Part shown: piece after piece, positions 4,307 through 32,000 of the stretch
Numbering within the stretch: position 1 is the stretch's first letter
Layout of the letters: the number at the start of each line of letters is the position of its first letter
NCBI GenBank assembly: GCA_030688545.1
Contig: JAUYHT010000006.1
Coordinates: 30,001-62,000 of the forward strand
Direction of reading: 5' to 3'
Length of the DNA stretch: 32,000 nt
Origin: Candidatus Iainarchaeum sp.
GTDB taxonomy: Archaea; Iainarchaeota; Iainarchaeia; Iainarchaeales; VGJJ01
The notes under the pieces: generated by a model
The model's input: only the letters and a program-made list of their open reading frames with translations
Told to the model about the DNA's origin: nothing
Databases searched by the model: none
Position numbers and translations under genes: made by a program

Positions 4307-4327
4307 CCTAGAAACATTCTCGCACCT

Positions 4328-4858: not shown

Positions 4859-4973
4859 TGTTAGAACGAAATTTTATTTGTCCTCCTCCCCCACTTAAAA
4901 GACGAGTATTTCCCGCTCCGGCATGCTAAAAATTTTCCATATTAATTTAAAGTTCGCGGCTCTATTATAATTT

Positions 4974-5476: not shown

Positions 5477-5482
5477 AGGAGA

Positions 5483-5749: not shown

Positions 5750-5820
5750 TGCGGCGGGACGCGGGACCAACGTTTTAATACACAAAGACCATTCACCTGC
5801 ATGGGTTGGGAGGAATAGGT

Positions 5821-6609: not shown

Positions 6610-6646
6610 TGGTAAGCCTTTTAGCTGGGGGAAGGTTTCCTTTCCA

Positions 6647-7114: not shown

Positions 7115-7125
7115 AAACAGCGTTC

Positions 7126-7135
7126 TATAAAAATA
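7126..7135 (+). promoter_or_regulatory. TATA-like A/T box
   Basis: The box tataaaaata is centred 25 nt upstream of ATG 7155, with no SD. Confidence 0.5.
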
Positions 7136-7154
7136 ATGGATTCCTGTTTCAAGA

Positions 7155-7748: not shown

Positions 7749-7833
7749 GGAATTTTTTCACATATTTCCCATCCGCAGGAAAAACGAGGGACCGGAGCAA
7801 GCATTATTAATCCCCCTAATCCTACCCTTCTTC

Positions 7834-15721: not shown

Positions 15722-17440
15722 TTATTCAATCATTTTTCCAATCCCGATGCCGTAAATGGTATCTTCCAATATCAGTACGTCCAGGCACGTGGGGTCGCGG
15801 AACTCCATTCGACTTTGTTCAAAAAATTCGGGGTATCCATGATCCAATTGGATTGAATTCAATTGGAATTTCCAGAATAAGATGTGGGTAATCCCTTTAT
15901 CCCGCCAAAAATCGCACGGGGGCTGTTCATAGGATGAAAACGAGGTGTGGTCATAGAGAGTTATTTTCTCAAATCCGCGGCGGATGGGATTGATGTTATT
16001 CATGAAGAATAGGGTGGTTTCTCCCGTGTTCGGAATGTATTTATTCATGGTGTCGTAGTAGTTCAATATCCCAAAATGGTACCCGGAATTCAGGAATACT
16101 AGAGTGAGAAAACCCGAGTAGAAACCAGCAATCACGATGCCGATAATAAATAGGGTCCCGAGATGGCGGGTAATGGATGTCGTTTTCGCTAGTAATTCAA
16201 GCGTCCGCGCAATCATGAGGCTGGTCAAGCCGATGAAGGCGAAGACGTAAATCGAGAGGTGGGTGTAGGTATACGCGTACAAATCAGTCAGTCCCAACGC
16301 CAATAGGAACGCACCTAGTGCGACCCATAAGATAGTGGCCAACATGCGCGTTCCATTATCGCGCCAAATCAAGTAGAGGGCAGCTGCTAATCCCACCCCC
16401 CAAACGCTTACAATCACGCTTTCCATTCCGGAGGACATTAACGCCAACCGTTGCGCCATGGAAATGGGGGTAGCCTGATAATACACCGCTTGCGTGATTT
16501 TCAATTCCGAGAGAATGTCAAACCCGCGCCACATGGCTGGGAGAAAATTCAATCCAACCCCCACCGCTCCACTCCCAGCGATAATTGCCATTTCCTTCCA
16601 TCGTTTAGAATACCACGCGTACACCATTCCTGCCGCCAGCACGACTACGACGGCATTGATTTTGGTCAAAGACAGGCTCAAGGGTAAAAGCACGAGTAGC
16701 CATGCCGGTCGGGACTGCTCGAGCAACACGGAAAGAAAACACAGGAAGAGGAAGAAAATGGTCTGTTCCACGAAAAAGGCTTTGGTCAAGCCCAACGTGG
16801 TACTAAAACCCAAAAACAGGAGGCCAGCCAACCAGGGATGGTGGATTCCGCTTTGCGCGGATAACCGGCCCAACATTCCGACGGTGCCCATAACGATCAA
16901 GAGTTGCAGGAATCCCTGCGAATAGGGTACCAGCGCGTGGGCCAACCCGAACACCATCTCTACTCCCTTGGGGAATATGAGATGAACATGATCCACCCAG
17001 TTAGTGGGTTCAATAGGCAGGGCAATCTGGCCATCCGCGGCGAACGAATCTATGAAGATGCCATGATAGGATAGCGTGTCGAATGAAAAATCGGGATATC
17101 CGAGCAGCGCAATGGCAAAAATGACCAGGAACGTGAGGAGGATGATGAACGAGGGGGTCCATTTGAATCGGGGGAATGGGAACCGGGATCGGCCGTCCAT
17201 CACCCACATACTCACGAAAAGCAGCCCTCCCGCCAGGAGAAAGGGTGGGGGAATGGGTATCCAGGTGGTGACAATGCTGAAAAGCACGGTCATGCCAGCC
17301 ACCGAAAGGCCAAAGGCCATCGCGGGGTGGTGAAAGGGTTTTGTTAATCGCCGGGTGAGGAGCGTCCCGGCACAGTAAAACCATCCGAAAGACGCCAGTA
17401 TCCCTAGAATAAGTGCCATCATGCCGCATTCCCCGGGCAT
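15722..17440 (-). CDS. Polytopic membrane protein, putative GT-C-like glycosyltransferase or polymerase
   Basis: 572 aa with about 14 hydrophobic segments and a soluble C-terminal domain. It starts 18 nt downstream of the GT2 gene on the same strand, so the two probably form an operon. No AglB-type WWDxG motif is present. Confidence 0.55.
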   Translation of the reverse strand: MPGECGMMALILGILASFGWFYCAGTLLTRRLTKPFHHPAMAFGLSVAGMTVLFSIVTTWIPIPPPFLLAGGLLFVSMWVMDGRSRFPFPRFKWTPSFIILLTFLVIFAIALLGYPDFSFDTLSYHGIFIDSFAADGQIALPIEPTNWVDHVHLIFPKGVEMVFGLAHALVPYSQGFLQLLIVMGTVGMLGRLSAQSGIHHPWLAGLLFLGFSTTLGLTKAFFVEQTIFFLFLCFLSVLLEQSRPAWLLVLLPLSLSLTKINAVVVVLAAGMVYAWYSKRWKEMAIIAGSGAVGVGLNFLPAMWRGFDILSELKITQAVYYQATPISMAQRLALMSSGMESVIVSVWGVGLAAALYLIWRDNGTRMLATILWVALGAFLLALGLTDLYAYTYTHLSIYVFAFIGLTSLMIARTLELLAKTTSITRHLGTLFIIGIVIAGFYSGFLTLVFLNSGYHFGILNYYDTMNKYIPNTGETTLFFMNNINPIRRGFEKITLYDHTSFSSYEQPPCDFWRDKGITHILFWKFQLNSIQLDHGYPEFFEQSRMEFRDPTCLDVLILEDTIYGIGIGKMIE

Positions 17441-17458: not shown

Positions 17459-18250
17459 TTATTCCTGCCTCCCATTCGCAATCTGGGGGGACTGGTACAA
17501 GTCATTGACCATTCCGGGGATTGGAAATGGTGCGCGCCGGAGCGCCCAATATTTCAGGGCTTCCCCTATCACGCGTAGACCATATGATACAATCCGCACC
17601 CGGGATATTTCATCCCCATAGAATGTGGGGATGGAGACTTCGTGTATCCGGAAGTGTCGATCAAAGAAGAGGATGAGGATTTGCGTGTCGAAATGAAATC
17701 CGGAGGTGCATTCGGAGAGGGGGATGTCCTGAAAGCAGCGGGTTCGAAACGCCCGGTATCCGGAGTGAAATTCCGAGAAACGACTCCCAACCAATAAGTT
17801 TTGAATTTGAGTGAGGGCTTGGTTGCCTATAAATTTGTGGAGTGGCATCTTTCCCCGGAGAGGATTTCCCGTCATGCGGGATCCAAAAACCAGGTCCGCT
17901 TCCCCCCGCATGATAGGGGAATAGATTTGGGAGAGCAGTTCCGGGGCGTACTGCCCATCTCCGTGCACCATCACCACGGCCTCCAATCCATTCTTGAGGG
18001 CGAATCGATAGGCGTGCTTCTGGTTGCCCCCGTAGCCCAAATTCTTAGGGTTGGTGTGCACGTGTATTTTATTACGGAAAGCATGGGTGCGTGCGCACGC
18101 ACACGCCACATCGCTCGTCCGGTCGGTGCTTGCGTCGTCGAAGATATAGATTCCTTCAGCTGCTCTAAATGTCTCCTCGGGAATCCGTGCCAATACCGAC
18201 GCGATCGTATCTTCCGCTTGATACGCCAGAATGAGGATGCCCAATTTCAT
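17459..18250 (-). CDS. Family-2 glycosyltransferase (Dpm1/GtrB-like polyprenyl-phosphate sugar synthase type)
   Basis: ILILAYQAEDTI...IYIFDDASTDRT...NLGYGGNQKHA...VMVHGDGQY...DLVFGSR is the canonical GT2 (GT-A, DxD) pattern. Confidence 0.85.
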   Translation of the reverse strand: MKLGILILAYQAEDTIASVLARIPEETFRAAEGIYIFDDASTDRTSDVACACARTHAFRNKIHVHTNPKNLGYGGNQKHAYRFALKNGLEAVVMVHGDGQYAPELLSQIYSPIMRGEADLVFGSRMTGNPLRGKMPLHKFIGNQALTQIQNLLVGSRFSEFHSGYRAFRTRCFQDIPLSECTSGFHFDTQILILFFDRHFRIHEVSIPTFYGDEISRVRIVSYGLRVIGEALKYWALRRAPFPIPGMVNDLYQSPQIANGRQE

Positions 18251-22392: not shown

Positions 22393-22659
22393 TTAAGCCT
22401 GCGGAGAGTGGGCCGCCGCGCCCTTTTTAACCCTCGATTCCATGAACGGGGGTATATGCCCTCCCCCCCGATCATACCATTGTCCGCCCGGCCTTTCCCC
22501 AAAAATAGAAATTATTTTTCCCCATCCAACCCTTTTTCCCATCCATCACAATCAGCAACAATAGCGGAAAATAGTCAGAGGCGTTCGGCCAATGGGAGAT
22601 TCCAAAAATCCCCTCGTCCCTCGGTGTGGCTGGGCGAAGCAGATCCTACCTTTTCTTCA

Positions 22660-22678
22660 GGGGTATCGAGGATACCCC
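22660..22678. promoter_or_regulatory. Perfect 19-nt palindrome GGGGTATC-GAG-GATACCCC upstream of (or within the leader of) the first pilin-like gene
   Basis: 8-bp arms at 22660-22667 and 22671-22678 with a 3-nt spacer, read directly from the sequence. Confidence 0.6.
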
Positions 22679-22728
22679 GGGTTCGGGGCGGCCGGACGAA
22701 AACGGCCATCGAAAGCGGCCGCGGGCAG

Positions 22729-23301
22729 ATGAGCGCGCCTTTCGAATTGCTCATCGCGGTCATCCTCATGGGATTTGTTCTCTTCGCCGGGTTTACCGCC
22801 ATCCAGCAGCTCCAGCAACAGACCTGCGTGAACACCATCCATTCCCAGCTGGAAAAATTGGGTCGGAATCTCCAGAATGTCGCCACTGGAAAAGGCAGCG
22901 CGCAGTTCCAGTTCTCCCTGGAGGGGTGTTCGGCCCGAATCAATGATTGTGCCCAGTTTTCCCAATTAGCCTCCGCCGGGCAGGAAGTGGAATGCATCCA
23001 GCTCCAGGATTCCACTGACCCCAATATTTGTTCGAGCTATTGTTCTTCCGCCCGTTCCGTGTGTTCCCTCCTCATCTACCGTTCGGCCAAATATGATACC
23101 ACCATCAAGTGCGTGGATATTTCTCCCTCCACTGTTTTCCCGGCCCAGGGCAGCCAGCAGTGTCCTGACCGTTCCCTGGAGGGCTGGGTCCTCCAGGATT
23201 TTACGACCTCAACCATTCGACAAGGTACTTATTCCCTGCTCAAGGGATCAGAATTAACGGCCACCGTACCCATTGTGTGTGCCTATTACCGCCAGGGGTA
23301 G
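22729..23301 (+). CDS. Pilin-like protein with a class-III-type N-terminus and a Cys-rich (10 Cys) extracellular domain
   Basis: ...GRGQ/MSAPFELLIAVILMGFVLFAGF resembles archaeal EppA-type (QxSxEF) and TadE-type prepilin N-termini. ATG is at 22729. An in-frame GTG at 22624 would give a 35-aa leader ending in RGQ, so the start is uncertain. Confidence 0.55.
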   Translation: MSAPFELLIAVILMGFVLFAGFTAIQQLQQQTCVNTIHSQLEKLGRNLQNVATGKGSAQFQFSLEGCSARINDCAQFSQLASAGQEVECIQLQDSTDPNICSSYCSSARSVCSLLIYRSAKYDTTIKCVDISPSTVFPAQGSQQCPDRSLEGWVLQDFTTSTIRQGTYSLLKGSELTATVPIVCAYYRQG

Positions 23302-23308
23302 ACCGTGC

Positions 23309-23905
23309 ATGATTGAGTTCACTCTTTCCAAAATAAATCTGCTCATTCTCGTCGTGGCTTTGTTTGGAATCATTTCTTTTTTCACTTTCAACCTGGGAGG
23401 GGTTTTCCTGGTAAATGAGGTGAAGCAGGAATTGGACACCTATTCCGCCACCATCAATGCGAGTCTCATCGCTCCCACGACATGCGATAGTAAGCCCTTT
23501 TCCATCCCCCCCAAATTCAAGTCGTTCGGGAGCGATGTATTCTATACCCTTTCCTTGTCCCAAATCCCTGATGGGTTGGGTAACCGCCTCATCTTTTCGG
23601 CGTCGGACATTCGCAAACCCGATTTGGTGTTAGCCGCCTCCTCCCTGGCCACGGATGCCCGCATTGTTATCTTCTCGGATGCCGGAGGAACATTTTTCCC
23701 CCTTTCTCCGGGGGAGGAATATGTTTTGGATCCCCAATCCGTGCCTCCCCGGAATGCGTTTTATATGGTGAAGAGTGTGATGCGTGGTAACACGACTTTG
23801 TATCTCATTCCATGCGCTATTTCCGCGCATGCCGAAACGTGCCAAACGAATAAGCAATTGGTAAATCAATTTCTCACGTCCTCGGGAGAAGGATTTGTAT
23901 GCTAA
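23309..23905 (+). CDS. Pilin-like / N-terminally anchored secreted protein
   Basis: Begins MIEFTLSKINLLILVVALFGIISFFTF, a charged IEF motif followed by a roughly 20-aa hydrophobic helix, then a soluble domain with 4 Cys. It starts 8 nt after the previous stop. Confidence 0.5.
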   Translation: MIEFTLSKINLLILVVALFGIISFFTFNLGGVFLVNEVKQELDTYSATINASLIAPTTCDSKPFSIPPKFKSFGSDVFYTLSLSQIPDGLGNRLIFSASDIRKPDLVLAASSLATDARIVIFSDAGGTFFPLSPGEEYVLDPQSVPPRNAFYMVKSVMRGNTTLYLIPCAISAHAETCQTNKQLVNQFLTSSGEGFVC

Positions 23906-24444
23906 CCCTTTTTTTGGGCGATCGGGGCTATTTGGGTCCCGTGGGGGATGACATCCCCAGCCTTATCCCCATTGTCGTGGCATTGGTCATCTTCTTCTCT
24001 GCCTTCACATTCACTCTCAATGAGTTCAATTCGCGAGGCCAAAGCTTTAACGCGGACCGGGATGTTCTTATTATCGCTAACGCGTTGAAAGGGGATAGCT
24101 ATATTGCCTCCTACCCTGAATTTGGGAGGGCTTGTGCGGGGTTACGAGTGCGGGGGTTGAATTACGTGGCGGGTCTCGTGGAGTCCTCGCGTTGGCATTC
24201 CATGTCCCAACAGGCCGCTGCCCAGCCCGATCAGCCAATTTTGAGTTTCATCGCCGATGCCTTCCACACCGAGAACAACCAGGAATTCTCCTGCCTTGGC
24301 GGGATTCAAGCCCCCCTCACGCAGGGGGGTTTGGCTTCCCTTCTTTTGGATAATCAGCATATCGTCCTCTCCTTTCCTGTGGCCCTGGAGTTGAGCACCG
24401 CGGTGGTCCCCGCGACTTTGGTGGTGATTGCTTGGAGAGTGTAA
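23899..24444 (+). CDS. Pilin-like / N-terminally anchored protein
   Basis: Begins MLTLFLGDRGYLGPVGDDIPSLIPIVVALVIFFSAFTF (basic-Gly followed by a hydrophobic helix). It overlaps the previous gene by 7 nt (ATGCTAA). Confidence 0.5.
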   Translation: MLTLFLGDRGYLGPVGDDIPSLIPIVVALVIFFSAFTFTLNEFNSRGQSFNADRDVLIIANALKGDSYIASYPEFGRACAGLRVRGLNYVAGLVESSRWHSMSQQAAAQPDQPILSFIADAFHTENNQEFSCLGGIQAPLTQGGLASLLLDNQHIVLSFPVALELSTAVVPATLVVIAWRV

Positions 24445-24463
24445 GGCTTTCATTTCTTTGTCT

Positions 24464-24489
24464 GGGTTCCAGGAGTCAACCTGGAACCC
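24464..24489 (+). promoter_or_regulatory. Perfect 10-bp stem / 6-nt loop hairpin between the third and fourth pilin-like genes
   Basis: GGGTTCCAGG (24464-24473), agtcaa, CCTGGAACCC (24480-24489). It begins 20 nt after the stop at 24444 and is not followed by a T-tract. Confidence 0.65.
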
Positions 24490-24532
24490 TAACTCCGCAG
24501 CGGCCCGACGGAACGGGCCAGGTGGTGAAATC

Positions 24533-25294
24533 ATGGCACGCGTAAGACGTTCAATTTTTGTTTCATCCGAGAGAACAGGGCAGGCCGCCGTTACGGATGC
24601 GTTGTTCCTTCTCGTCATCATCTCGGGTCTGACGGCGTTCATGCTTTTATTTTCGGCCAATTATGGCAAAGGCATTTCCGATCAAGTCAACCGGAATGAT
24701 TCATTCGAGTTCGTGGCGAGCGCGCTTAAAACCATCATGTATCAGAGCGTGGCCCGCAACGCGGATGAGATCATCAACCCTTTACATCCTGATCCGGAGC
24801 AGGAGGTGGACTATCTCATGGCCTTAGTTAAAGAAGATTTTGCGGACGACACGCAGTTATCGGTGAACACCCAGAAGAATCTGGCGCGCTCCGTTTTCCA
24901 CGTGATGCGTCCCATCGCCGACTCGCACGATTATATTTTTGCTATTAACACGGCCCAGAAATATGTATTTGTTATCCTCTGGCGCACCGAGTTCATCCCT
25001 TCCCCTAATCGATTTGGTGACGTGCAAGTGGATCCCCAGAACTCCCACCGCATGTATTCATGTGCTCCCTTGTTGAGTGATAATGCCCTCCAACGCCTCG
25101 CCCTGCGTGTGGGGAATACCACGGAAGCCCAGGCCCTGGTGAATATGGTGGAGTTTACCGGAAATTCGTTTCTTTTATCCCAGGATACCACGGCGACCCG
25201 CGCGGGAGTGACATTGGCCACGTGGACGGCCACGGTGATTCCGGATGCAGAGTGGCAGTTGCTGAACTGCACGCCTATTGCGTTCACGGTGTGA
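24533..25294 (+). CDS. TadE-like / archaeal class-III signal peptide protein (minor pilin-like)
   Basis: ATG 24533 gives MARVRRSIFVSSERTG/QAAVTDALFLLVIISGLTAFMLLF. This compares with the TadE consensus (R)G-x-AAVEFALVxP and the archaeal [KR]G/Q prepilin site. GGTGG lies upstream. Confidence 0.55.
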   Translation: MARVRRSIFVSSERTGQAAVTDALFLLVIISGLTAFMLLFSANYGKGISDQVNRNDSFEFVASALKTIMYQSVARNADEIINPLHPDPEQEVDYLMALVKEDFADDTQLSVNTQKNLARSVFHVMRPIADSHDYIFAINTAQKYVFVILWRTEFIPSPNRFGDVQVDPQNSHRMYSCAPLLSDNALQRLALRVGNTTEAQALVNMVEFTGNSFLLSQDTTATRAGVTLATWTATVIPDAEWQLLNCTPIAFTV

Positions 25295-25333
25295 GAGTTG
25301 GAGACGGGATTCACAAAATCCTGCCGAACCGTC

Positions 25334-25609
25334 CTATGATTTCTTTTTCAAATTCTTATACCATTTTTCGTATTGTTTATGGTTTCCGGAAAATCGAATT
25401 TCTTTTTCTTTGGTCTTTTCTACTATTTTGAGTGCGACCCGGTATTGGCCGATTTCTAATACGGAAAATTCAATTCCATGATTCAAATGTCTGAGTGATG
25501 TTTCCTCTTTTTGTTGTTGTATTTTTTTCCATATTCTTTCTTGGACTTGCCGATCCATTTTATCAAAATACTTGTCCCATCCGGGATAGTATTTGAGTAC
25601 ATATGGCAT
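25334..25609 (-). CDS. RelE/ParE-family type II toxin
   Basis: 91 aa. The segment ...RIWKKIQQ...LEIGQYRVALKIVEKTKEKEIRFSGNHKQY fits the RelE/ParE pattern (G-x-YR-[ivl]...[ivl]-x-[ivl]...g-x-[RH]-x-x-x-Y). It starts 6 nt downstream of the antitoxin stop, in a locally AT-rich island. Confidence 0.7.
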   Translation of the reverse strand: MPYVLKYYPGWDKYFDKMDRQVQERIWKKIQQQKEETSLRHLNHGIEFSVLEIGQYRVALKIVEKTKEKEIRFSGNHKQYEKWYKNLKKKS

Positions 25610-25615
25610 TATGCG

Positions 25616-25879
25616 TCACTTGAATCCGTATTTTTTCTTTACATTTTCTTCCGTTTCAAATTGCATGCCCTTATTTTTCATTTCTTCATCTTCTAGTTTC
25701 ATTTTAAAGGCTACCAGTTCTAACTCTAATTCTTTGGGGTCGTCTAGCAAATGGTATTCTTTTCCAAGCTCTAGGACGCCGGCACGTAGCGCTTCCGTCT
25801 TGGTTTTGAAATAGCCTTTAGCTATCAGTAGGGTGAGGATGTCTTCAGGAACCCCGCTCATTTTTACTAATGTTTCCAT
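25616..25879 (-). CDS. Putative antitoxin (ribbon-helix-helix-like) of the RelE/ParE pair
   Basis: Begins METLVKMSGVPEDILTLLIAKGYFKTKTEALRAGVLELG and has an acidic C-terminal half. It occupies the upstream position in a two-gene cassette. ATG at 25879; the track start at 25888 is GTG. Confidence 0.55.
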   Translation of the reverse strand: METLVKMSGVPEDILTLLIAKGYFKTKTEALRAGVLELGKEYHLLDDPKELELELVAFKMKLEDEEMKNKGMQFETEENVKKKYGFK

Positions 25880-25895
25880 ATAAACCACCTTTTTT

Positions 25896-25932
25896 ATGAT
25901 TATAATATGTATTCAGTAAATACTTTAATCAT
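25896..25932. promoter_or_regulatory. Nested palindromes overlapping the TA promoter A/T box (candidate operator)
   Basis: Outer arms ATGATTA (25896-25902) and TAATCAT (25926-25932). Inner arms GTATT (25909-13), cagta, AATAC (25919-23). The A/T box tgattataatatg lies about 25 nt upstream of ATG 25879. Confidence 0.5.
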
Positions 25933-26008
25933 ATTTAACCCTTTAGGTAAAATGGGAAAGAAATGGTTCTTTTGGCCAGCGAGCATAAATACGGTGATCA
26001 ATCCCCCA

Positions 26009-27136
26009 TTAATCATCGTCATCGAGCAGAGGTAGGTCGGCCATCTCCTCATCGGAAGGCAGTTCCAATTCGTCTGTTTTCTTCTTTTTTTTGGGCGATG
26101 TCGGGGCTTCCCCGAGCAAATCCTTCACATCCAAATCGGGGGTGGGGGTTTGACTAGTATTTTCAGCAGCGGGAGCAATCGAGGGACGATTGTCTTTCCC
26201 TTCCTCCAGTTGCCCGCGTTGGCGGCGGTAGTGGCGGGCATAGGCCTCGGCCGGATCATCGTTTGAGATAGGGGGGGATTGTTTGGGAGCGGAAGATGGG
26301 GGAGTGGAAGGTTGTTCTTTGGCGGCCCGCGCCCGGCGTTGTTCCATGCGTTCGCGGGGGGAGAGGCGTTCCTCTCCCACGGGGGTTTCCTCCGAGGGGT
26401 TTGATGAGGTAACCATTTCTTTTTCATCCCGCGCCGACCCAGGAAGGGTGTTGGAAAATTGGAATCGGGTGAGGGATTTCTTTTCAGGAGGGATTTCTTT
26501 TACTGTTTGAGGAGGGGGATTAATCTCCCGAGGAGGGGAGGGGGATCCAGGTTCTTTTACCGTGCCAGAATGCATGTTGCGCCGGAGTTCGGCCAACGTT
26601 TGCTCGATCTCCTCGGTGGAGGCAGTGTGGGTTCCGAGGAATGGGGATGATGTAGATTGAGTATTTTGATTGGTTGATGATGAAGAAGACGGGGTTTGTT
26701 TAAGTCCAAGAGCATGGTGTAGGGGGGGTTTCTTTCCCCCGAATAGATTGGAAACCCGTCCGAATAAACCGGATGAGGATGGTTTCCCATTTGGGTTTAT
26801 TTCGGGGGAACCAGAATAGATTGATGCGCTTGAAGAAGACTTCTCATCCGGGTGCTGGCGTTCATGCCTATGTTTTCCACGCGCGGCCTCCACATTCTCG
26901 AATACTCCCCTGCTCGGCCCGCGCATCCAGGGTTCCGATTCGTCATGCTCATCCGAATCAGGAGAAACTTCCGGTTGGGAGTTGCGTTTCCATTTGACCG
27001 GGGTTCCACGGGGGCCACTATTTCTTTTTTCAGCGGATGGGGACGAAGCCATTTGGGGGGGGATAGGCTCGCCATGGCGATAGTACCGCCGCAGCCGGCG
27101 GGGAACCTTGGATAACGAGGTTTCCATGTCAGGCAC
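26009..27136 (-). CDS. Low-complexity Ser/Pro/Glu/Lys-rich (predicted disordered) protein with an acidic C-terminus
   Basis: 375-aa ORF beginning MPDMETSLSKVPRRLRRYY, with SSSSSTNQNTQSTSSP runs, ending KKKKKTDELELPSDEEMADLPLLDDDD. It overlaps the upstream gene end by 8 nt (27129-27136), which suggests coupling. Confidence 0.5.
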   Translation of the reverse strand: MPDMETSLSKVPRRLRRYYRHGEPIPPQMASSPSAEKRNSGPRGTPVKWKRNSQPEVSPDSDEHDESEPWMRGPSRGVFENVEAARGKHRHERQHPDEKSSSSASIYSGSPEINPNGKPSSSGLFGRVSNLFGGKKPPLHHALGLKQTPSSSSSTNQNTQSTSSPFLGTHTASTEEIEQTLAELRRNMHSGTVKEPGSPSPPREINPPPQTVKEIPPEKKSLTRFQFSNTLPGSARDEKEMVTSSNPSEETPVGEERLSPRERMEQRRARAAKEQPSTPPSSAPKQSPPISNDDPAEAYARHYRRQRGQLEEGKDNRPSIAPAAENTSQTPTPDLDVKDLLGEAPTSPKKKKKTDELELPSDEEMADLPLLDDDD

Positions 27137-27764
27137 CCGGGATTCCCGGTTTCTTATCCAGGCTCTGGTTGAAGGCCTTTATATCCTTTCTCAGCTGCTC
27201 CATGGTGGCATCGAATCCTTCGAATTCGCTCGTTTCCAATCGGAATCCCAGATCGGAGGATTTCTTTTTTCTTTCTGAACGGGAAATTTTTTCTCCCGAT
27301 TCTTCCTTGAGGAGTTCAAGCACATCCATGGCATCGTTCTCGAGAATAGGAGGGGCGAGTGGTGACTCCGGTTTTCCCGTTCCCCGCAGGCGGGAGGCCT
27401 TGGATACCGCATGGGTGGGGGAAGGGATTTGGGTTTCAGGCGTTGGTACATACGTGTTCCAGTGCCACCATCCCCGCGTCACCAATCCTGTGATGCCGGC
27501 GGACAAAATCAGCAGGAGGATGAGCCAGAATCCCTGCTCCATTAATGAAAGAATGGCCGATGGGGTCAATGTTGACGACCGCTGCCAGAACACCCACCCC
27601 ACACCCCCCCATCCCACGATTAAACTGGCTCCCATTCGTTTCCATCCTTTCCAGTATTCGCTCCCCCCGATGGCGCTGCGCACCCATACATAGGCCAAAC
27701 CCGGGCTCCCTAGGAAGACGAGGCCTTGCAAGAGGGTAAAAATGAGGCTTCCCGATACGACCAT
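27129..27764 (-). CDS. Membrane protein with N-terminal TM segments and a soluble charged C-terminal domain
   Basis: 211 aa. Hydrophobic segments are SLIFTLLQGLVFLGSPGLAYVWV, ASLIVGWGGVGWVFW and FWLILLLILSAGITGLV. The A/T box at 27786-27794 is centred 26 nt upstream. Confidence 0.55.
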   Translation of the reverse strand: MVVSGSLIFTLLQGLVFLGSPGLAYVWVRSAIGGSEYWKGWKRMGASLIVGWGGVGWVFWQRSSTLTPSAILSLMEQGFWLILLLILSAGITGLVTRGWWHWNTYVPTPETQIPSPTHAVSKASRLRGTGKPESPLAPPILENDAMDVLELLKEESGEKISRSERKKKSSDLGFRLETSEFEGFDATMEQLRKDIKAFNQSLDKKPGIPGA

Positions 27765-27785
27765 ACCCCCAACAACCGGGCGCTC

Positions 27786-27794
27786 TTTTTTATT
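27786..27794. promoter_or_regulatory. Single A/T (TATA-like) box shared by divergent genes
   Basis: The box ttttttatt is centred at 27790. That is 27 nt from ATG 27817 (+) and 26 nt from ATG 27764 (-). The whole intergenic spacer is only 52 nt. Confidence 0.55.
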
Positions 27795-27816
27795 CTAGGG
27801 GTCGATTCTCCCTTTC

Positions 27817-28356
27817 ATGGTCGTTGATCTCCTCGGACAAGCCCTTTCGTATTTGGGGGGGTGGATTCTGGCGCTTTTCATTCCCCTCTTGATGGGTGTC
27901 CTGGTGGGAATCTTGGTGTTCAATGCGGTGCAGCACCGCACCGGATGGAAATGGGTCCCCGCGGCGGGATTCACCTTGTTGCTCCTATGGACCTTGCTTT
28001 TCTTCTTGGTGAACACGAGCAACCTCTTGAATGGTCTCCAGAACACCGACTTGAGTGTTATTCCTCCCGACGTGCAGGGGGATAAGGTTTACCAGGATTC
28101 GCAACCCCACCCCATTCTCTTTTTTTTCCGGGCCCTCTTCCAAAGCATCCTCGGGGCGTTCGTGTTCACTATTCTTTCCTTCCCATTTGTTTTCCTTGGA
28201 ATGATGTCATATGAATGGCTTTCCAAGCGCACCAAAAATGTGTGGTATCGCCTCATCGGAGTAGCGGGAATCTGGTCCCTCCTCCTGGGGGCACTATTAA
28301 CTGCGTTCCCCTGGATCCTCGTGGGAGTGATATATTTGGCGTTCTTCGGGCTATGA
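27817..28356 (+). CDS. Integral membrane protein with about 5 TM segments
   Basis: 179-aa ORF with hydrophobic segments throughout (WILALFIPLLMGVLVGILVF, AAGFTLLLLWTLLFFLV, ILGAFVFTILSFPFVFLGMM, LIGVAGIWSLLLGALLTAFPWILVGVIYLAFF). Confidence 0.55.
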   Translation: MVVDLLGQALSYLGGWILALFIPLLMGVLVGILVFNAVQHRTGWKWVPAAGFTLLLLWTLLFFLVNTSNLLNGLQNTDLSVIPPDVQGDKVYQDSQPHPILFFFRALFQSILGAFVFTILSFPFVFLGMMSYEWLSKRTKNVWYRLIGVAGIWSLLLGALLTAFPWILVGVIYLAFFGL

Positions 28357-28483
28357 ATTGGTTTCTGGAAAAGGCCTCTTGGGTTTGAAAAAGACCTTTG
28401 ATAATTGAAGGCTGGGGTGATTTTTTTCCGGAACCCCGAATAAGCCTTAAATAGGCCTCTTTCCCCTACCCTGCGCGAGCAAT

Positions 28484-31400
28484 ATGACGAATGGACGCGA
28501 GCGATGGGGATGTGTTTTCCTTCTTTTCCTGTTGGTATTCAGTCTCCCGGCCGCGGCGCTCTCGCGCGGAATGGCGAATAATGGTATTCAGGATGGTTTG
28601 GATGATTCGGATAATGAAAATGCTTTTCTGCCACCCCATCCCCCGAACCCTGTTTTGGGAATTGTCCCACCCGCTGAAAGCGTTCCCCTGCGTATCCAAT
28701 TACAGACTTCCCCCTCCGGCGCCCCGGCGTGCCGCCTATCCCAATTAACTCCCAGCGAGGTGCAGGCGTTCAAGGACACTATTCTCACCTCCGGATTCCA
28801 GGGAGAAGAGATTTCCGCGGGCACGCCCCCCAATCTAAATAGGGAAACGGTGGCGGATGAGAATACATTAATTGTCCCCGATCCCGCGCGCAATGGCACA
28901 GCGATCCAGAAAGAGGTGCCCACCCAGTTCCTGGAGCCGGAGGAATTATCCCCTCTTCTCAATAAGCACATCAAGAATGGCACCTTCGCCTTCGGATTAT
29001 CCATGACGGATTCCCTCCGCACCGCCCGGTGTTTGACTCCCGAGCAATGTGCGGTTTCGGGAGAGATGCTCCGTCTCCGTAATTCGGGGGAAGGATTCAC
29101 GGGGAACATTCAAAATATGTGGTCGTCCATTAAGGGGGATTTAGGGAAGCCGGATTCCTTGTTCTCCGAGGAGGAAGCCGACTACTTGTTGGGAGGAGTG
29201 GAGGCGGAACAGGAATTGGGAGAAGCGGATGCCAATTACATCCCGGTGGAAGGATTTTCCCGCATTCCTTCTAACGAGCTGATGAATTGGATTGCCGTGG
29301 ACAACACCTTCTCCTCAGCCTTGCTCACCAATTGCACCGACAGTTCGTGCATCACCATGCTGTATTCCATGTTCGACAAATACTTCAACGCCTGGTTCTC
29401 CGGGGAAATGGTTATCGGCACATTCGGTCCTACTGCGTGGGGAAAATTGCGGTATATGATTACCCGGGGAAAGCGCATCAACCTTATTTCAGCCAATTGG
29501 GCGGACCCCCTGCGGCGGAATATCGATCTTGAAAACAGATGGAAATTCCGCAATATCGAGGGCATTGGTCTGGGGGGGAATAAACCCATCGCCCCCTCCG
29601 AATTTTTTTCCAAGAGACGCCCAGGAGGTACTATTGAAGGGAAAGAGGTATTCAAGAATTACAAACGCACGATGGAACGGGAAGTGGGATCGGAGAACGT
29701 ATTCAAGGAATTCTTCGTCGACCGCAAGGTCATTTCTCCCGGAAAGTCCGCCAACTTTGAGGATGAGGCCTTCCGCTCGGGTGCCTTGAGCAAGATCACC
29801 GATTTTGATGAACAGAAGAAACTGTTCACCTACATGGGGAAGATTCGCGAGCACGCCATGGCCACCAAACATGTGGCGAAACAACTAGATGACGAATTGA
29901 AATTGGGCCGCATCTCCCAAGTGGATTACGCGCGGGGGTATTCCAAGATCGCCAAGGACCTGGATGATGTCCTCAACCTGGATATGCCCGCTTTTATTCG
30001 GGGGGAAAAAGCCACTGGTCTCCAGCGCTTCCAAGTAATTGATGTGGGCACGGGTCAACCCGTCTCATTGACAGATGGGGCGGACGGGGCCTATTTCAAT
30101 AACGTGTTCGACGAGTTCATCAAGACGGGAAATTTTAATGATGTCAGAACGCTGAAAAAGGTGGGAGAAAATATCGAGTTGTACGAACTCAAACCCCAGA
30201 GGATCATCAATGAAGCCGTTCTTGAATCCATCGAGAAAGGGGAATATGCGGACGATGTTTATGTCCTCCTCAGCGATGGGGTTACAACGGTGCCCGCCAC
30301 GAAGACCCAATACAAAACCATTTTCGACGATTTCAAGGCCTCGGGGATAAAGCCCCGGATCGTGGAGGGGGGTCGTACCTTGGTACCGGGAGGCTTGTCC
30401 CCCGAGCTGTTCGGAAAAGGAATCGTCGGAGGAGATGTGCTCAAGGAAAAAATAAAGTGGTACCACCGCAATGTCGAAGCGGTCCATGATACCATGATTT
30501 CGCGAGATTGGGGCCGCGGGAATTATACAAACCTTCTCTCCCGCTCGATGCAGGGACAGGAAAAGCTGATCAAGAATTACGTTAATGTGTTAAATCCCGA
30601 TGTGGCGGCCGGTCCCTTGGGGTGGACGGCCAAAACCTATGGGTATTGGTGGGTCACTCGCGGATTGGGATTCGACGACTTTACCCTTTACCGGTTGCCC
30701 GATGAGTTCACGGAGATTGCATTCTCCACGGGGGATGTCCCCATCTATGATGATGCCTACATCGATTTTTTCGCCAATGAAGGATCAGATACGGGCGACC
30801 TGTTCCAGCGCCTCATATCCAAATTCCCTTTTCCCGCTTTGGTAATTGACCCTCTGGCGTCCCGGTTCGAGCCTCTGGAAAAGGCCTGGAATTTCTTCAG
30901 TGGGAAACAAGCTCGCACTCAACCAGATAATCTCGCCCTATTCATGTTTGGAGGAGAATCCTGTCCCACCTGCAAAGCCACCATTGCTTCCCCTTCCCTG
31001 GAGCAGGCTAATGTCTATTTCCAGAGCCCCGAGAGCCTCACTGGTTTTCTCCTCGAGGATGGCCAATCTAAAGATGCAAGGGAATTAGGACAATTACTCG
31101 TCGCCTATGCCCACCACCTGGATATTGGGGGCCAGCTCAGTGGGGAGGTGTTGGATCAAATCACCCTCTCCACGGCCCGGGAGAAAGGCCTCGCGTGCGA
31201 TCAGGTGATTGAGGATGTTTTTCTCTGGGGAAATGTATCCAAACTCATCGGGGCGGAGCGTATTGGAGCCGCATTGGCCGTAACCGAAAACCTCTCCTAT
31301 TGGGTGTTGGGTTATGGCGGCACGTTGGTCACGGCGATCAACCAGATTTATTTTGCCCAGCAGATGAATGAATGCGTGGACGATAAGGAGGGGTATTTCG

Positions 31401-32000
31401 CCCACATCTTCGTCCCGCGGGAAGTGGAAGGACAAGGGAAATCCCAGGAAATCCAGAATTCCGCCACCCAGGAAGCATTGGATGGGATTCAGGCTTTTGC
31501 TGGTCGCGTGCAGGCCGATGCCACGGATGCCTCCCTCTCGGATAAGGCGTTGGCTGAGGCCACAGGGAAAGTGAAAGAATTGGTGGATGATGCCCGCAAG
31601 CGGGATGTGGTGGAGGCCGAGCTCCGCATTTCTGGTGCCTCGTATGGGGGGATCGAGTCGAAGAAACCTATCTATTTTTGGGTGGGCCCGCAAGCAGAAT
31701 TGGATGTGAGTGCGTATTCCACGGATGGGAAAACCGTTCTTTCTAATGCGGATGGGGATACGTTGACTTTAGATAACCAGTCAGGCACCCTCACGGTGAA
31801 TGGGCAGCCGGTAATCGACAGCAGTGAAGCCGATCATGTCCGCCTGGCCAGCACCAACCTATCCATCCCCGCGGTGGAGGTGCCCCAGCGCCTCAATGCC
31901 TTTTCCCTGGATGATTCCAACCGATTCATCTTAGGGATAAACGTTCGGGGGGAAACAATTGTTCACGACCCGGCGCTCCTCGATTGTATTCGACAAGCCG
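28484..32000 (+). CDS. Very large secreted/surface protein with its N-terminus in the window and its 3' end beyond the window
   Basis: Frame 2 is open from ATG 28484 to the window end (1,172 codons, no stop). It is not in the track because it is open-ended. The signal-peptide-like N-terminus is MTNGRERWGCVFLLFLLVFSLPAAALS. All track ORFs in this interval are in other frames or antisense. No known domain is recognised by eye. Confidence 0.8.
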   Translation, partial: MTNGRERWGCVFLLFLLVFSLPAAALSRGMANNGIQDGLDDSDNENAFLPPHPPNPVLGIVPPAESVPLRIQLQTSPSGAPACRLSQLTPSEVQAFKDTILTSGFQGEEISAGTPPNLNRETVADENTLIVPDPARNGTAIQKEVPTQFLEPEELSPLLNKHIKNGTFAFGLSMTDSLRTARCLTPEQCAVSGEMLRLRNSGEGFTGNIQNMWSSIKGDLGKPDSLFSEEEADYLLGGVEAEQELGEADANYIPVEGFSRIPSNELMNWIAVDNTFSSALLTNCTDSSCITMLYSMFDKYFNAWFSGEMVIGTFGPTAWGKLRYMITRGKRINLISANWADPLRRNIDLENRWKFRNIEGIGLGGNKPIAPSEFFSKRRPGGTIEGKEVFKNYKRTMEREVGSENVFKEFFVDRKVISPGKSANFEDEAFRSGALSKITDFDEQKKLFTYMGKIREHAMATKHVAKQLDDELKLGRISQVDYARGYSKIAKDLDDVLNLDMPAFIRGEKATGLQRFQVIDVGTGQPVSLTDGADGAYFNNVFDEFIKTGNFNDVRTLKKVGENIELYELKPQRIINEAVLESIEKGEYADDVYVLLSDGVTTVPATKTQYKTIFDDFKASGIKPRIVEGGRTLVPGGLSPELFGKGIVGGDVLKEKIKWYHRNVEAVHDTMISRDWGRGNYTNLLSRSMQGQEKLIKNYVNVLNPDVAAGPLGWTAKTYGYWWVTRGLGFDDFTLYRLPDEFTEIAFSTGDVPIYDDAYIDFFANEGSDTGDLFQRLISKFPFPALVIDPLASRFEPLEKAWNFFSGKQARTQPDNLALFMFGGESCPTCKATIASPSLEQANVYFQSPESLTGFLLEDGQSKDARELGQLLVAYAHHLDIGGQLSGEVLDQITLSTAREKGLACDQVIEDVFLWGNVSKLIGAERIGAALAVTENLSYWVLGYGGTLVTAINQIYFAQQMNECVDDKEGYFAHIFVPREVEGQGKSQEIQNSATQEALDGIQAFAGRVQADATDASLSDKALAEATGKVKELVDDARKRDVVEAELRISGASYGGIESKKPIYFWVGPQAELDVSAYSTDGKTVLSNADGDTLTLDNQSGTLTVNGQPVIDSSEADHVRLASTNLSIPAVEVPQRLNAFSLDDSNRFILGINVRGETIVHDPALLDCIRQA

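What the first reader, a model, noticed from the sequence alone, without database searches (positions are those of the whole stretch)
28484..32000. Giant secreted ORF (more than 1,170 codons and still open at the window edge) with no recognisable domains, missed by the ORF track
My manual translation shows one uninterrupted frame from ATG 28484 to base 31999. It has a classic signal peptide (MTNGRERWGCVFLLFLLVFSLPAAALS). The sequence is then non-repetitive and compositionally ordinary, with scattered Cys pairs (CRLSQ, CLTPEQC, NCTDSSC, CPTC). It becomes beta-strand-like toward the end (GDTLTLDNQSGTLTVNGQPVIDSS). Five antisense ORFs of 131-199 aa in the track are shadows of it. I recognise no enzymatic or adhesin motif. 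Very large surface proteins are a hallmark of host-attached, small-genome symbionts, both archaeal and bacterial. It lies next to pilin-like genes, membrane proteins and a glycosylation module, which suggests an attachment or host-interaction apparatus.
Basis: partly seen in the sequence, partly recalled or inferred. Interest (0 to 1): 0.72.

Follow-up and report, generated by a model that had tools for sequence, protein, structure and literature searches.

The report
Pilus-cluster surface protein of Iainarchaeota
The open frame is a real gene for a 1,534-residue membrane-anchored surface protein; it is large rather than giant, and it belongs to an uncharacterised family found across one phylum of tiny archaea (Iainarchaeota), almost always inside a type IV pilus gene cluster.

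Summary
Window 28484-31999 is one open frame of 1,172 codons (chance about 5e-25). A contig identical to the window over 7,510 nt shows the gene ends 363 codons later, at 1,534 aa. The layout is a Sec-type signal peptide, an acidic ectodomain of about 1,470 aa with 12 conserved Cys, a conserved [FL]N[LI]PS[LV]PE motif, one C-terminal TM helix and a basic tail.

No Pfam, NCBIfam, PDB-sequence or Foldseek match was found, although the AlphaFold models are confident (pLDDT 86 and 75).

It is not an orphan. Exhaustive HMMER finds 207 cluster representatives, and 203 GTDB species genomes carry a relative. Nearly all are Ca. Iainarchaeum/Diapherotrites, with a distant branch in Micrarchaeota.

Where flanks allow, the gene sits in a conserved cluster:
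- four pilin-like genes upstream, three with class-III signals (35-36/41)
- a 5-TM partner gene directly upstream (55/61)
- PAC2 downstream (40/40)
- TadC-like platform (34/40) and TadA/FlaI-like ATPase (35/40)

Best reading: a tethered, disulfide-stabilised "S-layer-like" or adhesive accessory of the pilus apparatus. Makarova et al. (2016) predicted this kind of protein for other archaea. It is a new member of that kind, function untested. "Giant" and "host-attachment apparatus" are overstated.

The parts
28484..32000 (+). First 1,172 of 1,534 codons of the large surface-protein gene. The stop codon lies at window-equivalent position 33088, outside the window.
   Evidence: Open frame. Full gene on the identical contig L001:3994-8598. 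Homologs of 1,513-1,585 aa. 207 family representatives.
28446..28454 (+). CTTAAATAG, a putative archaeal BRE/TATA promoter element about 30-38 nt upstream of the ATG.
   Evidence: Sequence. The same motif, gCTTAAATAGcc or CTTTTATA, sits at the same distance in the close relatives L008-L020. Its promoter function is inferred, not shown.
28484..28564 (+). Sec-type signal peptide, residues 1-27.
   Evidence: Hydrophobic segment 9-27, KD 2.31. An N-terminal hydrophobic segment occurs in 90/100 long members. No lipobox, twin-arginine or class-III motif is seen in the sequence. Cleavage was not tested.
28565..28717 (+). Poorly conserved acidic/Pro-rich linker, residues 28-78, predicted disordered.
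   Evidence: pLDDT below 50 for residues 17-78. Lowest conservation in the protein.
28727..29368 (+). Conserved N-terminal alpha/beta domain, residues 82-295, with C83, C183/C189, C284/C289 and the motifs FAFGLxxxDxLRxxRC, RNSGxG and YSxFDKYFNxWFS.
   Evidence: AlphaFold secondary structure and pLDDT. Invariant columns. Conservation blocks.
29369..30643 (+). Mostly alpha-helical, fast-evolving and indel-rich middle region, residues 296-720, with long helices at 296-331, 441-473, 479-497 and 640-673.
   Evidence: structure. (lowest conservation outside the linker). Alignment gaps.
30644..31453 (+). Conserved central alpha/beta region, residues 721-990: DAYIDFFANEGSDxGD, invariant C827-x-x-C830, E858, HH877-878, C905, a moderately hydrophobic helical hairpin at 915-962, and C964-VDxxEGY.
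   Evidence: The hairpin is not TM-grade; only residues 9-27 and 1499-1517 pass KD 1.0.
31454..31609 (+). Low-confidence helical linker, residues 991-1042.
   Evidence: pLDDT 42-50. The equivalent region of P0001 is also low.
31610..32000 (+). Start of the membrane-proximal beta-rich module, residues 1043 to about 1480. It is the most conserved part of the protein and continues beyond the window, followed by the PSLP motif, the TM helix 1499-1517 and a basic tail.
   Evidence: Model of the P0001 C-terminus, 66% identical to ours: pLDDT 85.7, pTM 0.77. Conservation. C-terminal sequence. Motif statistics.
27817..28356 (+). 179-aa polytopic (4-6 TM) membrane protein, a conserved co-directional upstream partner.
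   Evidence: Present within 400 nt upstream in 55/61 loci, median gap 67 nt. No conserved Cys, His, Ser, Asp or Glu. In several AT-rich clades its stop codon abuts the big gene's ATG. No family hit passes a cutoff.
27129..27764 (-). 211-aa ORF with N-terminal TM segments, the first of two reverse-strand genes conserved in position.
   Evidence: position conserved. Sequence conserved in only 6 of 41 loci by tblastn. No family hit.
26009..27136 (-). 375-aa low-complexity (Ser/Pro/Glu/Lys-rich) ORF, the second reverse-strand gene conserved in position.
   Evidence: Equivalent reverse ORFs occur in L004, L007 and L086.
24428..25294 (+). Pilin-like gene 4. Class-III signal, RTGQ / AAVTDALFLLVIISGL. 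The true start is probably downstream of 24428.
   Evidence: [KR][GA]-QAAVTDALFFL is conserved across the phylum. Upstream on the same strand in 36/41 loci.
23899..24444 (+). Pilin-like gene 3. Class-III signal, DRG / YLGPVGDDIPSLIPIVVALVIFF.
   Evidence: [KR]G-[YF][LI]GPIGDD[LI]PSLIP is conserved. 36/41 loci.
23273..23905 (+). Pilin-like gene 2. Conserved hydrophobic N-terminus M[IL]xF[TI]LSK[IL]NLLILV, with no obvious class-III cleavage motif.
   Evidence: 35/41 loci.
22408..23301 (+). Pilin-like gene 1. Class-III signal, GRGQ / MSAPFELLIAVILMGFV. The true start is probably about 90 codons downstream of 22408.
   Evidence: [KR][GA]-QE[SA]APFELLIAVI is conserved. 36/41 loci. The orthologs in L007 are about 200 aa.

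Best explanation
The gene encodes a type-I membrane-anchored, disulfide-stabilised cell-surface protein. It is most likely a dedicated accessory component of the type IV pilus-like apparatus of Iainarchaeota (Diapherotrites), a DPANN archaeal phylum. This is the 'S-layer-like' or adhesive surface component that comparative genomics has predicted in the pilus loci of other archaea.

Proposed working:
1. The precursor is exported through Sec and its N-terminal signal peptide is removed.
2. The C-terminal helix (residues 1499-1517) stays in the membrane, with the basic tail in the cytoplasm.
3. A flexible juxtamembrane linker carries the conserved [FL]N[LI]PS[LV]PE motif.
4. The highly conserved beta-rich module (about 1043-1480) therefore sits next to the membrane. 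There it could contact the conserved 5-TM partner and the pilus base.
5. The conserved central and N-terminal Cys-containing domains, and the fast-evolving helical region (296-720), project outward as the exposed face. That face either mediates contact with surfaces or other cells, or forms the envelope structure the pilus passes through.

Shown: the ORF, its full length, the topology signals, the family and its distribution, the gene-cluster linkage, and the class-III signals of the neighbours. Inferred: export, orientation, physical association with the pilus machinery, and the adhesive or envelope role.
For: - Full gene and topology: signal peptide, exactly one further TM-grade segment at the C-terminus, and a basic tail. 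The same layout occurs in 99/100 long family members, 68 of them with the strict motif before the TM.
- Twelve conserved Cys, family median 12, with an even count in 83% of members.
- Acidic ectodomain: pI 4.8 here, family median 5.1.
- Phylum-wide family: 207 representatives. 203 GTDB species genomes carry a relative, almost all labelled Ca. Iainarchaeum or Diapherotrites, including the type strain and two closed genomes. The best 77 loci come from 77 different assemblies.
- Cluster linkage where flanks allow: four pilin-like genes upstream on the same strand in 35-36/41 loci; PAC2 in 40/40; T2SSF in 34/40; T2SSE in 35/40. All 27 loci with both flanks have T2SSE/F. The same order holds at 24-26% identity and in a distant branch (L086).
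- Three neighbour families carry conserved archaeal class-III signals. The ATPase is of the TadA/FlaI/VirB11 family.
- A 5-TM partner is co-directional upstream in 55/61 loci and translationally coupled in some clades.
- Conservation gradient: the membrane-proximal module is most conserved and the middle helical region least.
- Precedent for the kind: Makarova, Koonin and Albers 2016 (PMC4858521) describe S-layer-like proteins in archaeal T4P loci with a signal peptide, one C-terminal TM and conserved cysteines. Makarova et al. [quoted passage not shown]
Against: - There is no direct evidence of physical or functional association. Conserved gene order in small, related genomes can persist without a functional link.
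- In the window's clade the gene has its own conserved promoter-like element, so co-regulation with the pilus genes is not shown.
- One Micrarchaeota lineage has the protein with no T4P genes within 10 kb (L085).
- There is no sequence or structural similarity to any known pilus component, adhesin or S-layer protein.
- Several invariant polar residues (D772, R811, E858, D966) would also suit an enzyme or a metal site.
- Homology to the arCOGs of Makarova et al. could not be tested.
Confidence: 0.5

Rival explanations
1. It is the main lattice-forming S-layer protein of Iainarchaeota, anchored by its C-terminal helix. Its position beside the pilus genes is historical or only loosely functional.
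For: - It appears near-universal, with one locus per assembly across the best 77 loci.
- 165 kDa, pI 4.8 and low Cys+Met (2.1%) fall within the ranges quoted for S-layer proteins in Gfrerer et al. 2021.
- A signal peptide plus C-terminal TM anchor is a classical archaeal S-layer layout (my own knowledge).
- It has its own conserved BRE/TATA-like element.
- Makarova et al. note that S-layer proteins are often encoded in T4P loci.
Against: - No hit to any Pfam S-layer domain, PF05123 included, in the window protein or in 31 diverse members.
- The experimentally supported DPANN S-layer protein SLP_Mh is a PF05123 protein of about 101 kDa. Micrarchaeota also carry distant relatives of this family. 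Co-occurrence in a single genome was not checked.
- N-glycosylation sequons are not enriched: observed/expected is 1.02 here and 0.87 as the family median.
- Many invariant polar residues and 12 conserved Cys are unusual for fast-evolving lattice proteins (my own knowledge).
- No abundance data are available.
Confidence: 0.22
2. It is a functional analogue of bacterial PilY1: a large adhesin delivered to the pilus by the minor-pilin set. The C-terminal helix would be removed at the conserved PSLPE motif by a sortase- or archaeosortase-like enzyme, or it would act only as a transient anchor.
For: - The gene is encoded with four pilin-like genes.
- The C-terminal module is beta-rich, and its only Foldseek hits, all weak, are beta-propellers at E 4e-4 to 1e-2. 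PilY1 has a C-terminal propeller (my own knowledge).
- The tripartite C-terminus (conserved motif, TM, basic tail) resembles sortase and exosortase signals.
- Makarova et al. propose PilY-like adhesins in Methanococcus T4P loci.
Against: - No Pfam match to the PilY1/PilC or DUF2341 families.
- Foldseek probabilities are at most 0.23 for the propeller hits and TM-scores about 0.1.
- The C-termini of seven family members fail every curated sorting-signal model: PEP-CTERM 12.8 against a cutoff of 16, LAETG 17 against 30.
- No other protein carries the motif in 1.29 Mb of Iainarchaeota sequence, although that sample is local.
- No archaeosortase gene was seen near the locus.
- The propeller-like module is membrane-proximal, not distal.
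Confidence: 0.1
3. It is a surface-tethered enzyme of a new fold, for example a hydrolase acting on extracellular polymers or on a neighbouring cell's envelope.
For: Invariant or nearly invariant acidic and polar residues and motifs persist even at 14-20% identity: DAYxDFFANxGSDxGD, E858, HH877-878, CVDxxxGYY, and an invariant CxxC.
Against: No match to any catalytic family by sequence or structure. The conserved residues could equally be structural or bind Ca/Zn. The tight pilus-cluster context is not typical of exoenzymes.
Confidence: 0.08
4. It is a membrane-active host-contact protein, pore-forming or fusogen-like, that uses the conserved hydrophobic helical hairpin (915-962) to engage another cell's membrane.
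For: The top hits for the N-terminal/central model, none significant, are ClyA-family alpha-pore-forming toxins SmhA, SmhB and NheA (E 0.39-8). The model has long helices and a conserved, moderately hydrophobic hairpin. Cytoplasmic bridges are reported for some DPANN-host pairs.
Against: The hits are not significant (probability at most 0.11, TM at most 0.14). The hairpin is not TM-grade in hydrophobicity. There is no match to viral fusion proteins or to anything in BFVD (best E 2.1). In the one system studied, the nanotubes originate from the host.
Confidence: 0.04

Closest known systems
'S-layer-like' accessory proteins of archaeal type IV pilus loci (e.g. arCOG05471 and the large C-terminally anchored proteins of Pyrobaculum/Thermoproteus loci; Makarova, Koonin and Albers 2016, PMC4858521)
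   Same: Signal peptide, a single C-terminal TM anchor and several conserved cysteines. Encoded within a locus that has a VirB11/FlaI-family ATPase, a TadC-like platform and class-III-signal pilins (compared).
   Different: Homology was not demonstrable here because no arCOG library was available. This family is restricted to Iainarchaeota and a distant Micrarchaeota branch. It comes with its own conserved partners, a 5-TM protein and PAC2. The known examples are themselves only computational predictions with no tested function.
PilY1 of Pseudomonas aeruginosa, and the DUF2341-containing proteins proposed as PilY-like adhesins in Methanococcus T4P loci
   Same: A large non-pilin protein encoded with a set of about four minor-pilin-like genes. 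A beta-rich C-terminal module whose only (weak) structural neighbours are propellers. The analogy to PilY1 was drawn by Makarova et al. for other archaea.
   Different: No sequence match to the PilY1/PilC or DUF2341 families. This protein has a C-terminal TM anchor and its beta module is membrane-proximal. PilY1 has no such anchor (my own knowledge).
Haloferax volcanii S-layer glycoprotein with a PGF-CTERM signal processed by archaeosortase ArtA (my own knowledge)
   Same: Signal peptide, acidic ectodomain and a tripartite C-terminus (short conserved motif, TM helix, basic tail).
   Different: The motif here is [FL]N[LI]PS[LV]PE, not PGF. No curated sorting-signal model reaches its cutoff. There is no evidence of a cognate sortase or of other substrates. 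Sequons are not enriched.
DPANN S-layer proteins SLP_Mh (Ca. Micrarchaeum harzensis) and NEQ300 (Nanoarchaeum equitans) (Gfrerer et al. 2021 bioRxiv)
   Same: Large acidic surface proteins of DPANN archaea with an N-terminal export signal.
   Different: SLP_Mh carries the Pfam S-layer domain PF05123 and has no reported C-terminal TM. The window protein and 31 relatives have no such domain and do have a C-terminal TM.
Truly giant surface proteins of DPANN, CPR and Omnitrophota, such as the SPEARE proteins of Nanohaloarchaeota (my own knowledge)
   Same: Large exported proteins in small-genome lineages, often with no clear annotation.
   Different: Those are several thousand residues long, multi-domain and often repetitive. 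This one is 1,534 aa and non-repetitive, and its length is tightly conserved across the family.

Membership tests
T4P-locus 'S-layer-like' proteins of archaea (kind defined by Makarova et al. 2016) | N-terminal signal peptide (not class III) | tested here: met
   Hydrophobic segment 9-27 preceded by Arg residues. 90/100 members have one. No SignalP was available, so cleavage is inferred.
T4P-locus 'S-layer-like' proteins of archaea (kind defined by Makarova et al. 2016) | Single C-terminal transmembrane anchor | tested here: met
   TM at 1499-1517 followed by RRRK. Modelled as a helix. 99/100 members.
T4P-locus 'S-layer-like' proteins of archaea (kind defined by Makarova et al. 2016) | Several conserved cysteines | tested here: met
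   Eight invariant and four nearly invariant Cys in 42 sequences. Median 12 per ectodomain, with an even count in 83% of members.
T4P-locus 'S-layer-like' proteins of archaea (kind defined by Makarova et al. 2016) | Encoded in a locus with a secretion ATPase, a TadC-like protein and class-III-signal pilins | tested here: met
T4P-locus 'S-layer-like' proteins of archaea (kind defined by Makarova et al. 2016) | Sequence homology to arCOG05471 or the other listed arCOGs | not testable with these tools
   No arCOG profiles or member sequences were available. Pfam, NCBIfam and PDB give nothing.
Canonical archaeal S-layer proteins | Recognised S-layer domain (e.g. Pfam PF05123 S_layer_N) | tested here: not met
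   No Pfam hit at E up to 1 for the window protein, and none at E up to 0.01 in 31 members.
Canonical archaeal S-layer proteins | Most abundant envelope protein, forming a 2-D lattice | not testable with these tools
   This needs proteomics or cryo-ET of an Iainarchaeota culture or enrichment.
Canonical archaeal S-layer proteins | Heavy N-glycosylation (sequon enrichment as a proxy) | tested here: not met
   10 sequons against 9.8 expected. Family median observed/expected is 0.87. This is only a proxy.
Archaeosortase/exosortase/sortase substrates (PGF-CTERM, PEP-CTERM, LPXTG-type) | Tripartite C-terminus: signature motif, TM helix, basic cluster | tested here: met
   [FL]N[LI]PS[LV]PE, then a TM, then K/R in 68/100 members strictly and 28 more loosely.
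Archaeosortase/exosortase/sortase substrates (PGF-CTERM, PEP-CTERM, LPXTG-type) | Match to a curated sorting-signal model above its cutoff | tested here: not met
   Best scores are LAETG 17.1 against 30 and PEP-CTERM 12.8 against 16. Four of seven tails hit nothing.
Archaeosortase/exosortase/sortase substrates (PGF-CTERM, PEP-CTERM, LPXTG-type) | Several unrelated substrates in one genome share the signal, and a cognate sortase gene is present | tested here: inconclusive
   In 1.29 Mb of held Iainarchaeota sequence the motif occurs only on this family. That sample covers only these neighbourhoods, and whole genomes could not be scanned.
PilY1-like pilus-associated adhesins | PilY1/PilC C-terminal propeller domain or DUF2341 | tested here: not met
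   No Pfam hit. Foldseek finds only weak propeller resemblance: E 4e-4 or weaker, probability at most 0.23 for those hits, TM about 0.1.
PilY1-like pilus-associated adhesins | Encoded with minor pilins | tested here: met
Giant surface proteins of small-genome symbionts | Length of several thousand residues, usually multi-domain or repetitive | tested here: not met
   1,534 aa. Family range 1,200-1,730 aa. No repeats.

The most novel reading that the evidence does not exclude
A confidently modelled protein of apparently new folds (no significant match in PDB or BFVD), conserved across a phylum, is the actual contact device of a DPANN type IV pilus machine. It would be a membrane-tethered functional counterpart of PilY1, working with a dedicated 5-TM partner and a PAC2-like cytoplasmic factor. 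Alternatively, it is the unidentified S-layer protein of Iainarchaeota, built on an architecture unlike any known S-layer. Either would define a new, lineage-specific envelope module and give a concrete molecular handle on whether and how Iainarchaeota attach to other cells.
Probability: 0.25. Interest if true: 0.65.

Novelty: new member of a known kind. Interest (0 to 1): 0.4.

Why it matters
Iainarchaeota (Diapherotrites) are uncultured DPANN archaea, and I found no report describing their envelope. This work turns an anonymous open frame into a defined, phylum-wide protein family. The family has a clear topology, confident structural models that match nothing solved, and a fixed place in a type IV pilus gene cluster. 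That cluster also holds two unexpected conserved partners, a 5-TM protein and a PAC2-family protein.

The family is therefore an obvious first target for metaproteomics, antibody labelling or cryo-ET of enrichments, and a useful marker for the phylum. It does not overturn anything. The kind of protein was already predicted for other archaea, and its function remains untested there too.

One practical lesson: the word-indexed search found 8 relatives where exhaustive HMMER found 207.

Tried and rejected
- **Known-domain searches.** Pfam and NCBIfam on the window protein gave only sub-threshold noise (wH_RNase_II, phage P2 V). PDB sequence searches with the single protein and with two profiles found nothing. 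Pfam on 31 diverse members found nothing.
- **Homolog searches.** Word-indexed searches with the single protein and with a profile returned only 8 relatives. This looked like an orphan but was an artefact of the word index; exhaustive HMMER found 207. The first attempt failed because the profile exceeded 1,200 positions.
- **Repeats.** Internal repeats were sought by self-BLAST and by tile-against-tile hhalign. None were found.
- **Sorting signal.** The C-terminal tails were tested against curated sorting-signal models, and none reached its cutoff. A search for the same signal on other proteins in 1.29 Mb of held sequence found none.
- **Fold searches.** Foldseek of both models against PDB, and of the N-terminal/central model against BFVD, gave no significant match. 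The ClyA-toxin and beta-propeller resemblances were considered and not adopted as memberships.
- **Structure prediction limits.** An alignment of 86 sequences failed and was replaced by one of 42.
- **5-TM partner as a processing enzyme.** The upstream 5-TM protein was examined as a possible dedicated protease or sortase. No conserved catalytic-type residues were found.
- **Window-wide scans.** tRNA and Rfam scans of the window were empty. A repeat search of the ORF-free stretch 12.4-13.6 kb found nothing meaningful.
- **Literature.** No paper describing this family was found. Youssef et al. 2015 is not held.

Full report
**1. The observation.** Window 28484-31999 translates as one uninterrupted frame of 1,172 codons. 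The window's stop-codon frequency is 0.047, so the chance of such a run is about 5e-25. The ORF lister omits it only because it runs off the window's end. No Pfam, NCBIfam or PDB-sequence match reaches significance.

**2. The whole gene.** An exact look-up of the complete neighbouring gene (27817-28356) retrieved a 24-kb Logan contig, L001. It is identical to window 24491-32000 at all 7,510 positions. On it the gene runs 3994-8598, which gives 1,534 aa and a stop at window-equivalent 33088. The protein ends ...FNIPSLPPTIAGLAIALLVLGIVSAGIYVDSRRRKDNEVSSSLV. Only two segments are TM-grade hydrophobic: the signal peptide (9-27) and 1499-1517. The topology is therefore type I: an acidic ectodomain of about 1,470 aa (pI 4.8, 165 kDa), one anchor helix and a basic cytoplasmic tail. 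It is large, not giant.

**3. The family.**
- Word-indexed searches found only eight relatives of 1,513-1,585 aa. None has a Pfam domain, and two carry archaeal MAG labels.
- An exhaustive HMMER search, using a profile of residues 690-1496 against 1.84 billion representatives, found 207 proteins at E<=1e-3 and 111 at E<=1e-30. Nearly all complete ones are 1,200-1,730 aa.
- Of 100 long members, 90 have an N-terminal hydrophobic segment and 99 a C-terminal TM. 68 carry a strict [FL]N[LI]PS[LV]PE[ND] motif just before the TM, and 28 more carry a looser Pro-rich version.
- A scan of GTDB species representatives found relatives in 203 genomes. The best 77 loci come from 77 different assemblies. They are overwhelmingly labelled Ca. 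Iainarchaeum or Diapherotrites, and include Ca. Iainarchaeum andersonii, AR10 (CP010424.1) and another closed genome.
- A distant branch, 14-16% identical over the full length, is labelled Micrarchaeota, including Ca. Norongarragalina.
- Twelve Cys positions are conserved. The family median is 12 Cys, and 83% of members have an even count, which fits disulfides.
- There are no internal repeats. None of 31 diverse members has a Pfam domain, and the diverse profile hits nothing in PDB.

**4. Structure.** AlphaFold2 with 41-42 sequences gave two models.
- *Window fragment, residues 1-1172: pLDDT 75.5, pTM 0.62.* It shows a disordered linker (17-78), an alpha/beta N-domain (82-295), a long-helix region (296-720), a conserved alpha/beta centre (721-990), a low-confidence helical linker, and beta strands from 1043.
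- *C-terminal 528 residues of homolog P0001, 66% identical to ours: pLDDT 85.7, pTM 0.77.* It shows a beta-rich module of about 420 residues, a disordered linker carrying the IPSIPE motif, then the TM helix.
- *Fold searches.* Foldseek against PDB gave nothing significant. For the C-terminal model the best E is 3.8e-4, with probability at most 0.23 among the top hits and TM about 0.1, and the hits are nearly all beta-propellers. For the N-terminal/central model the best E is 0.39, to ClyA-family toxins. BFVD gave nothing, best E 2.1. I treat both resemblances as leads only.
- *Conservation.* It is highest in the membrane-proximal beta module and in the 721-780, 151-210 and 271-330 blocks. It is lowest in 31-90 and 331-720.

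**5. Context.**
- *Pilin-like genes.* The four upstream (+) ORFs at 22408-25294 hit no library. Across orthologs, three of the four families show textbook archaeal class-III signals: [KR][GA]/QE[SA]APFELLIAVI, [KR]G/[YF][LI]GPIGDD[LI]PSLIP and [KR][GA]/QAAVTDALFFL. The fourth begins with a conserved hydrophobic N-terminus.
- *Downstream on L001.* After an SRAP gene come PAC2, two T2SSF ORFs and a T2SSE ATPase of the TadA/FlaI/VirB11 family, then DUF192. The SRAP gene is not conserved in other loci.
- *Counts in the 77 GTDB loci, using only those with enough flank.* The four pilin-like genes lie upstream on the same strand in 35-36 of 41. PAC2 lies downstream in 40 of 40, T2SSF in 34 of 40 and T2SSE in 35 of 40. 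All 27 loci with both flanks have T2SSE/F.
- *Depth of the arrangement.* The order holds at 24-26% identity (L004 and L006) and in a distant branch (L086). It is absent in Ca. Norongarragalina (L085).
- *5-TM partner.* A protein of about 179 aa with 4-6 TM segments is co-directional immediately upstream in 55 of 61 loci, with a median gap of 67 nt. It has no conserved catalytic-type residues.
- *Transcription signals.* In the window's clade a conserved gCTTAAATAGcc element lies about 30-38 nt upstream of the ATG. In several AT-rich clades the ATG abuts the partner gene's stop codon (GGTGAatgaATG).

**6. Interpretation.** Signal peptide, single C-terminal TM, conserved cysteines and residence in a type IV pilus locus together match what Makarova, Koonin and Albers (2016, PMC4858521) call S-layer-like components of archaeal T4P systems. 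Makarova et al. (2019, PMC6393860) mention 'specific surface proteins' among the known T4P components found in DPANN T4P islands.

I therefore read the protein as a tethered, disulfide-stabilised accessory of the Iainarchaeota pilus apparatus. Its conserved beta module would sit at the membrane and its variable region would be exposed. This is a claim about what it works like. Homology to those arCOGs could not be tested.

The main rival is that it is the phylum's true S-layer protein.
- *For:* near-universality, size and pI within the typical ranges, and its own promoter-like element.
- *Against:* it has no S-layer domain. The proven Micrarchaeota S-layer protein is a PF05123 protein, while Micrarchaeota also hold relatives of this family. 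Sequons are not enriched.

A PilY1-like released adhesin, a tethered enzyme and a membrane-active protein remain possible at low probability. The C-terminal motif resembles a sortase-type signal, but it fails all curated models and was not found on other proteins in the sequence held.

**7. Verdict.** It is overstated on 'giant', and 'host-interaction apparatus' is unsupported. This is a new, well-populated member of a kind already predicted by comparative genomics. It is interesting as a target for DPANN envelope biology, but not surprising to a specialist.

Noticed in passing
window 7155-7748 (+): A 197-aa ORF passes the curated NCBIfam cutoff for a sigma-70/ECF-family sigma factor (TIGR02937, 61.7 against 42.9 bits) and has Pfam Sigma70_r2 and r4. 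This is a bacterial-type transcription factor on what otherwise looks like an archaeal (Iainarchaeota) contig. I did not check whether it is shared by other Iainarchaeota or whether the assembly is chimeric there.
   Followed up: partly
window 836-2731, 2955-4226 and 7834-8889 (+): DXP synthase and GcpE/IspG, both MEP-pathway enzymes, plus an FMN-dependent dehydrogenase-family gene that might be a type-2 IPP isomerase. A 2024 survey states that the MEP pathway is 'almost absent in archaea' (PMC11052028). This could be horizontal transfer from bacteria. Composition shows no obvious break.
   Followed up: partly
L001 9351-10226 (-), window-equivalent about 33841-34716: A PAC2 (proteasome-assembly-chaperone family) gene lies downstream of the big gene in 40 of 40 testable loci. 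In 37 of those it has the same orientation as the TadC/ATPase genes, as if it belonged to that operon. I found no mention of PAC2 in the archaeal T4P survey. It may be an unrecognised cytoplasmic component of this pilus system.
   Followed up: partly
window 25334-25609 and 25616-25888 (-): Two small ORFs of 91 and 90 aa. One has a weak HigB/RelE-like hit (E 0.004, below cutoff), which suggests a toxin-antitoxin pair inserted between the pilin genes and the reverse ORFs. The equivalent position in L007 has no such genes.
   Followed up: partly
window 12459-13555: A stretch of about 1.1 kb with low GC (about 41%) and no ORF of 65 aa or more. It has no Rfam family, no tRNA and no meaningful repeats. 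Unexplained.
   Followed up: partly
window 14132-15598 (+), 15722-17440 (-), 17459-18250 (-): Two large polytopic membrane proteins of 488 and 572 aa have no Pfam or NCBIfam hit. They sit next to a family-2 glycosyltransferase. The big membrane proteins could be divergent GT-C-type transferases, which I did not test.
   Followed up: no
L086 1-1943: In the distant branch, the pilus ATPase carries an intein with a LAGLIDADG endonuclease domain (precomputed Pfam hits PF14890, PF14528 and T2SSE).
   Followed up: no
window 26009-27136 (-): A 375-aa ORF of very low complexity (Ser/Pro/Glu/Lys-rich, ending in DDDD). It is conserved in position but hardly in sequence across loci, and it is paired with a 211-aa membrane protein on the same strand. 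Function unknown; possibly a disordered cytoplasmic component of the cluster.
   Followed up: no
L085 1-8403: Beside the Ca. Norongarragalina family member lie two much larger genes (1,949 aa, and more than 2,329 aa running off the locus). The 1,949-aa product has NosD/beta-helix repeats and the larger one weak or faint CarboxypepD_reg, SpaA and bMG3 hits. These are closer to the 'giant surface protein' idea than the window's gene.
   Followed up: no
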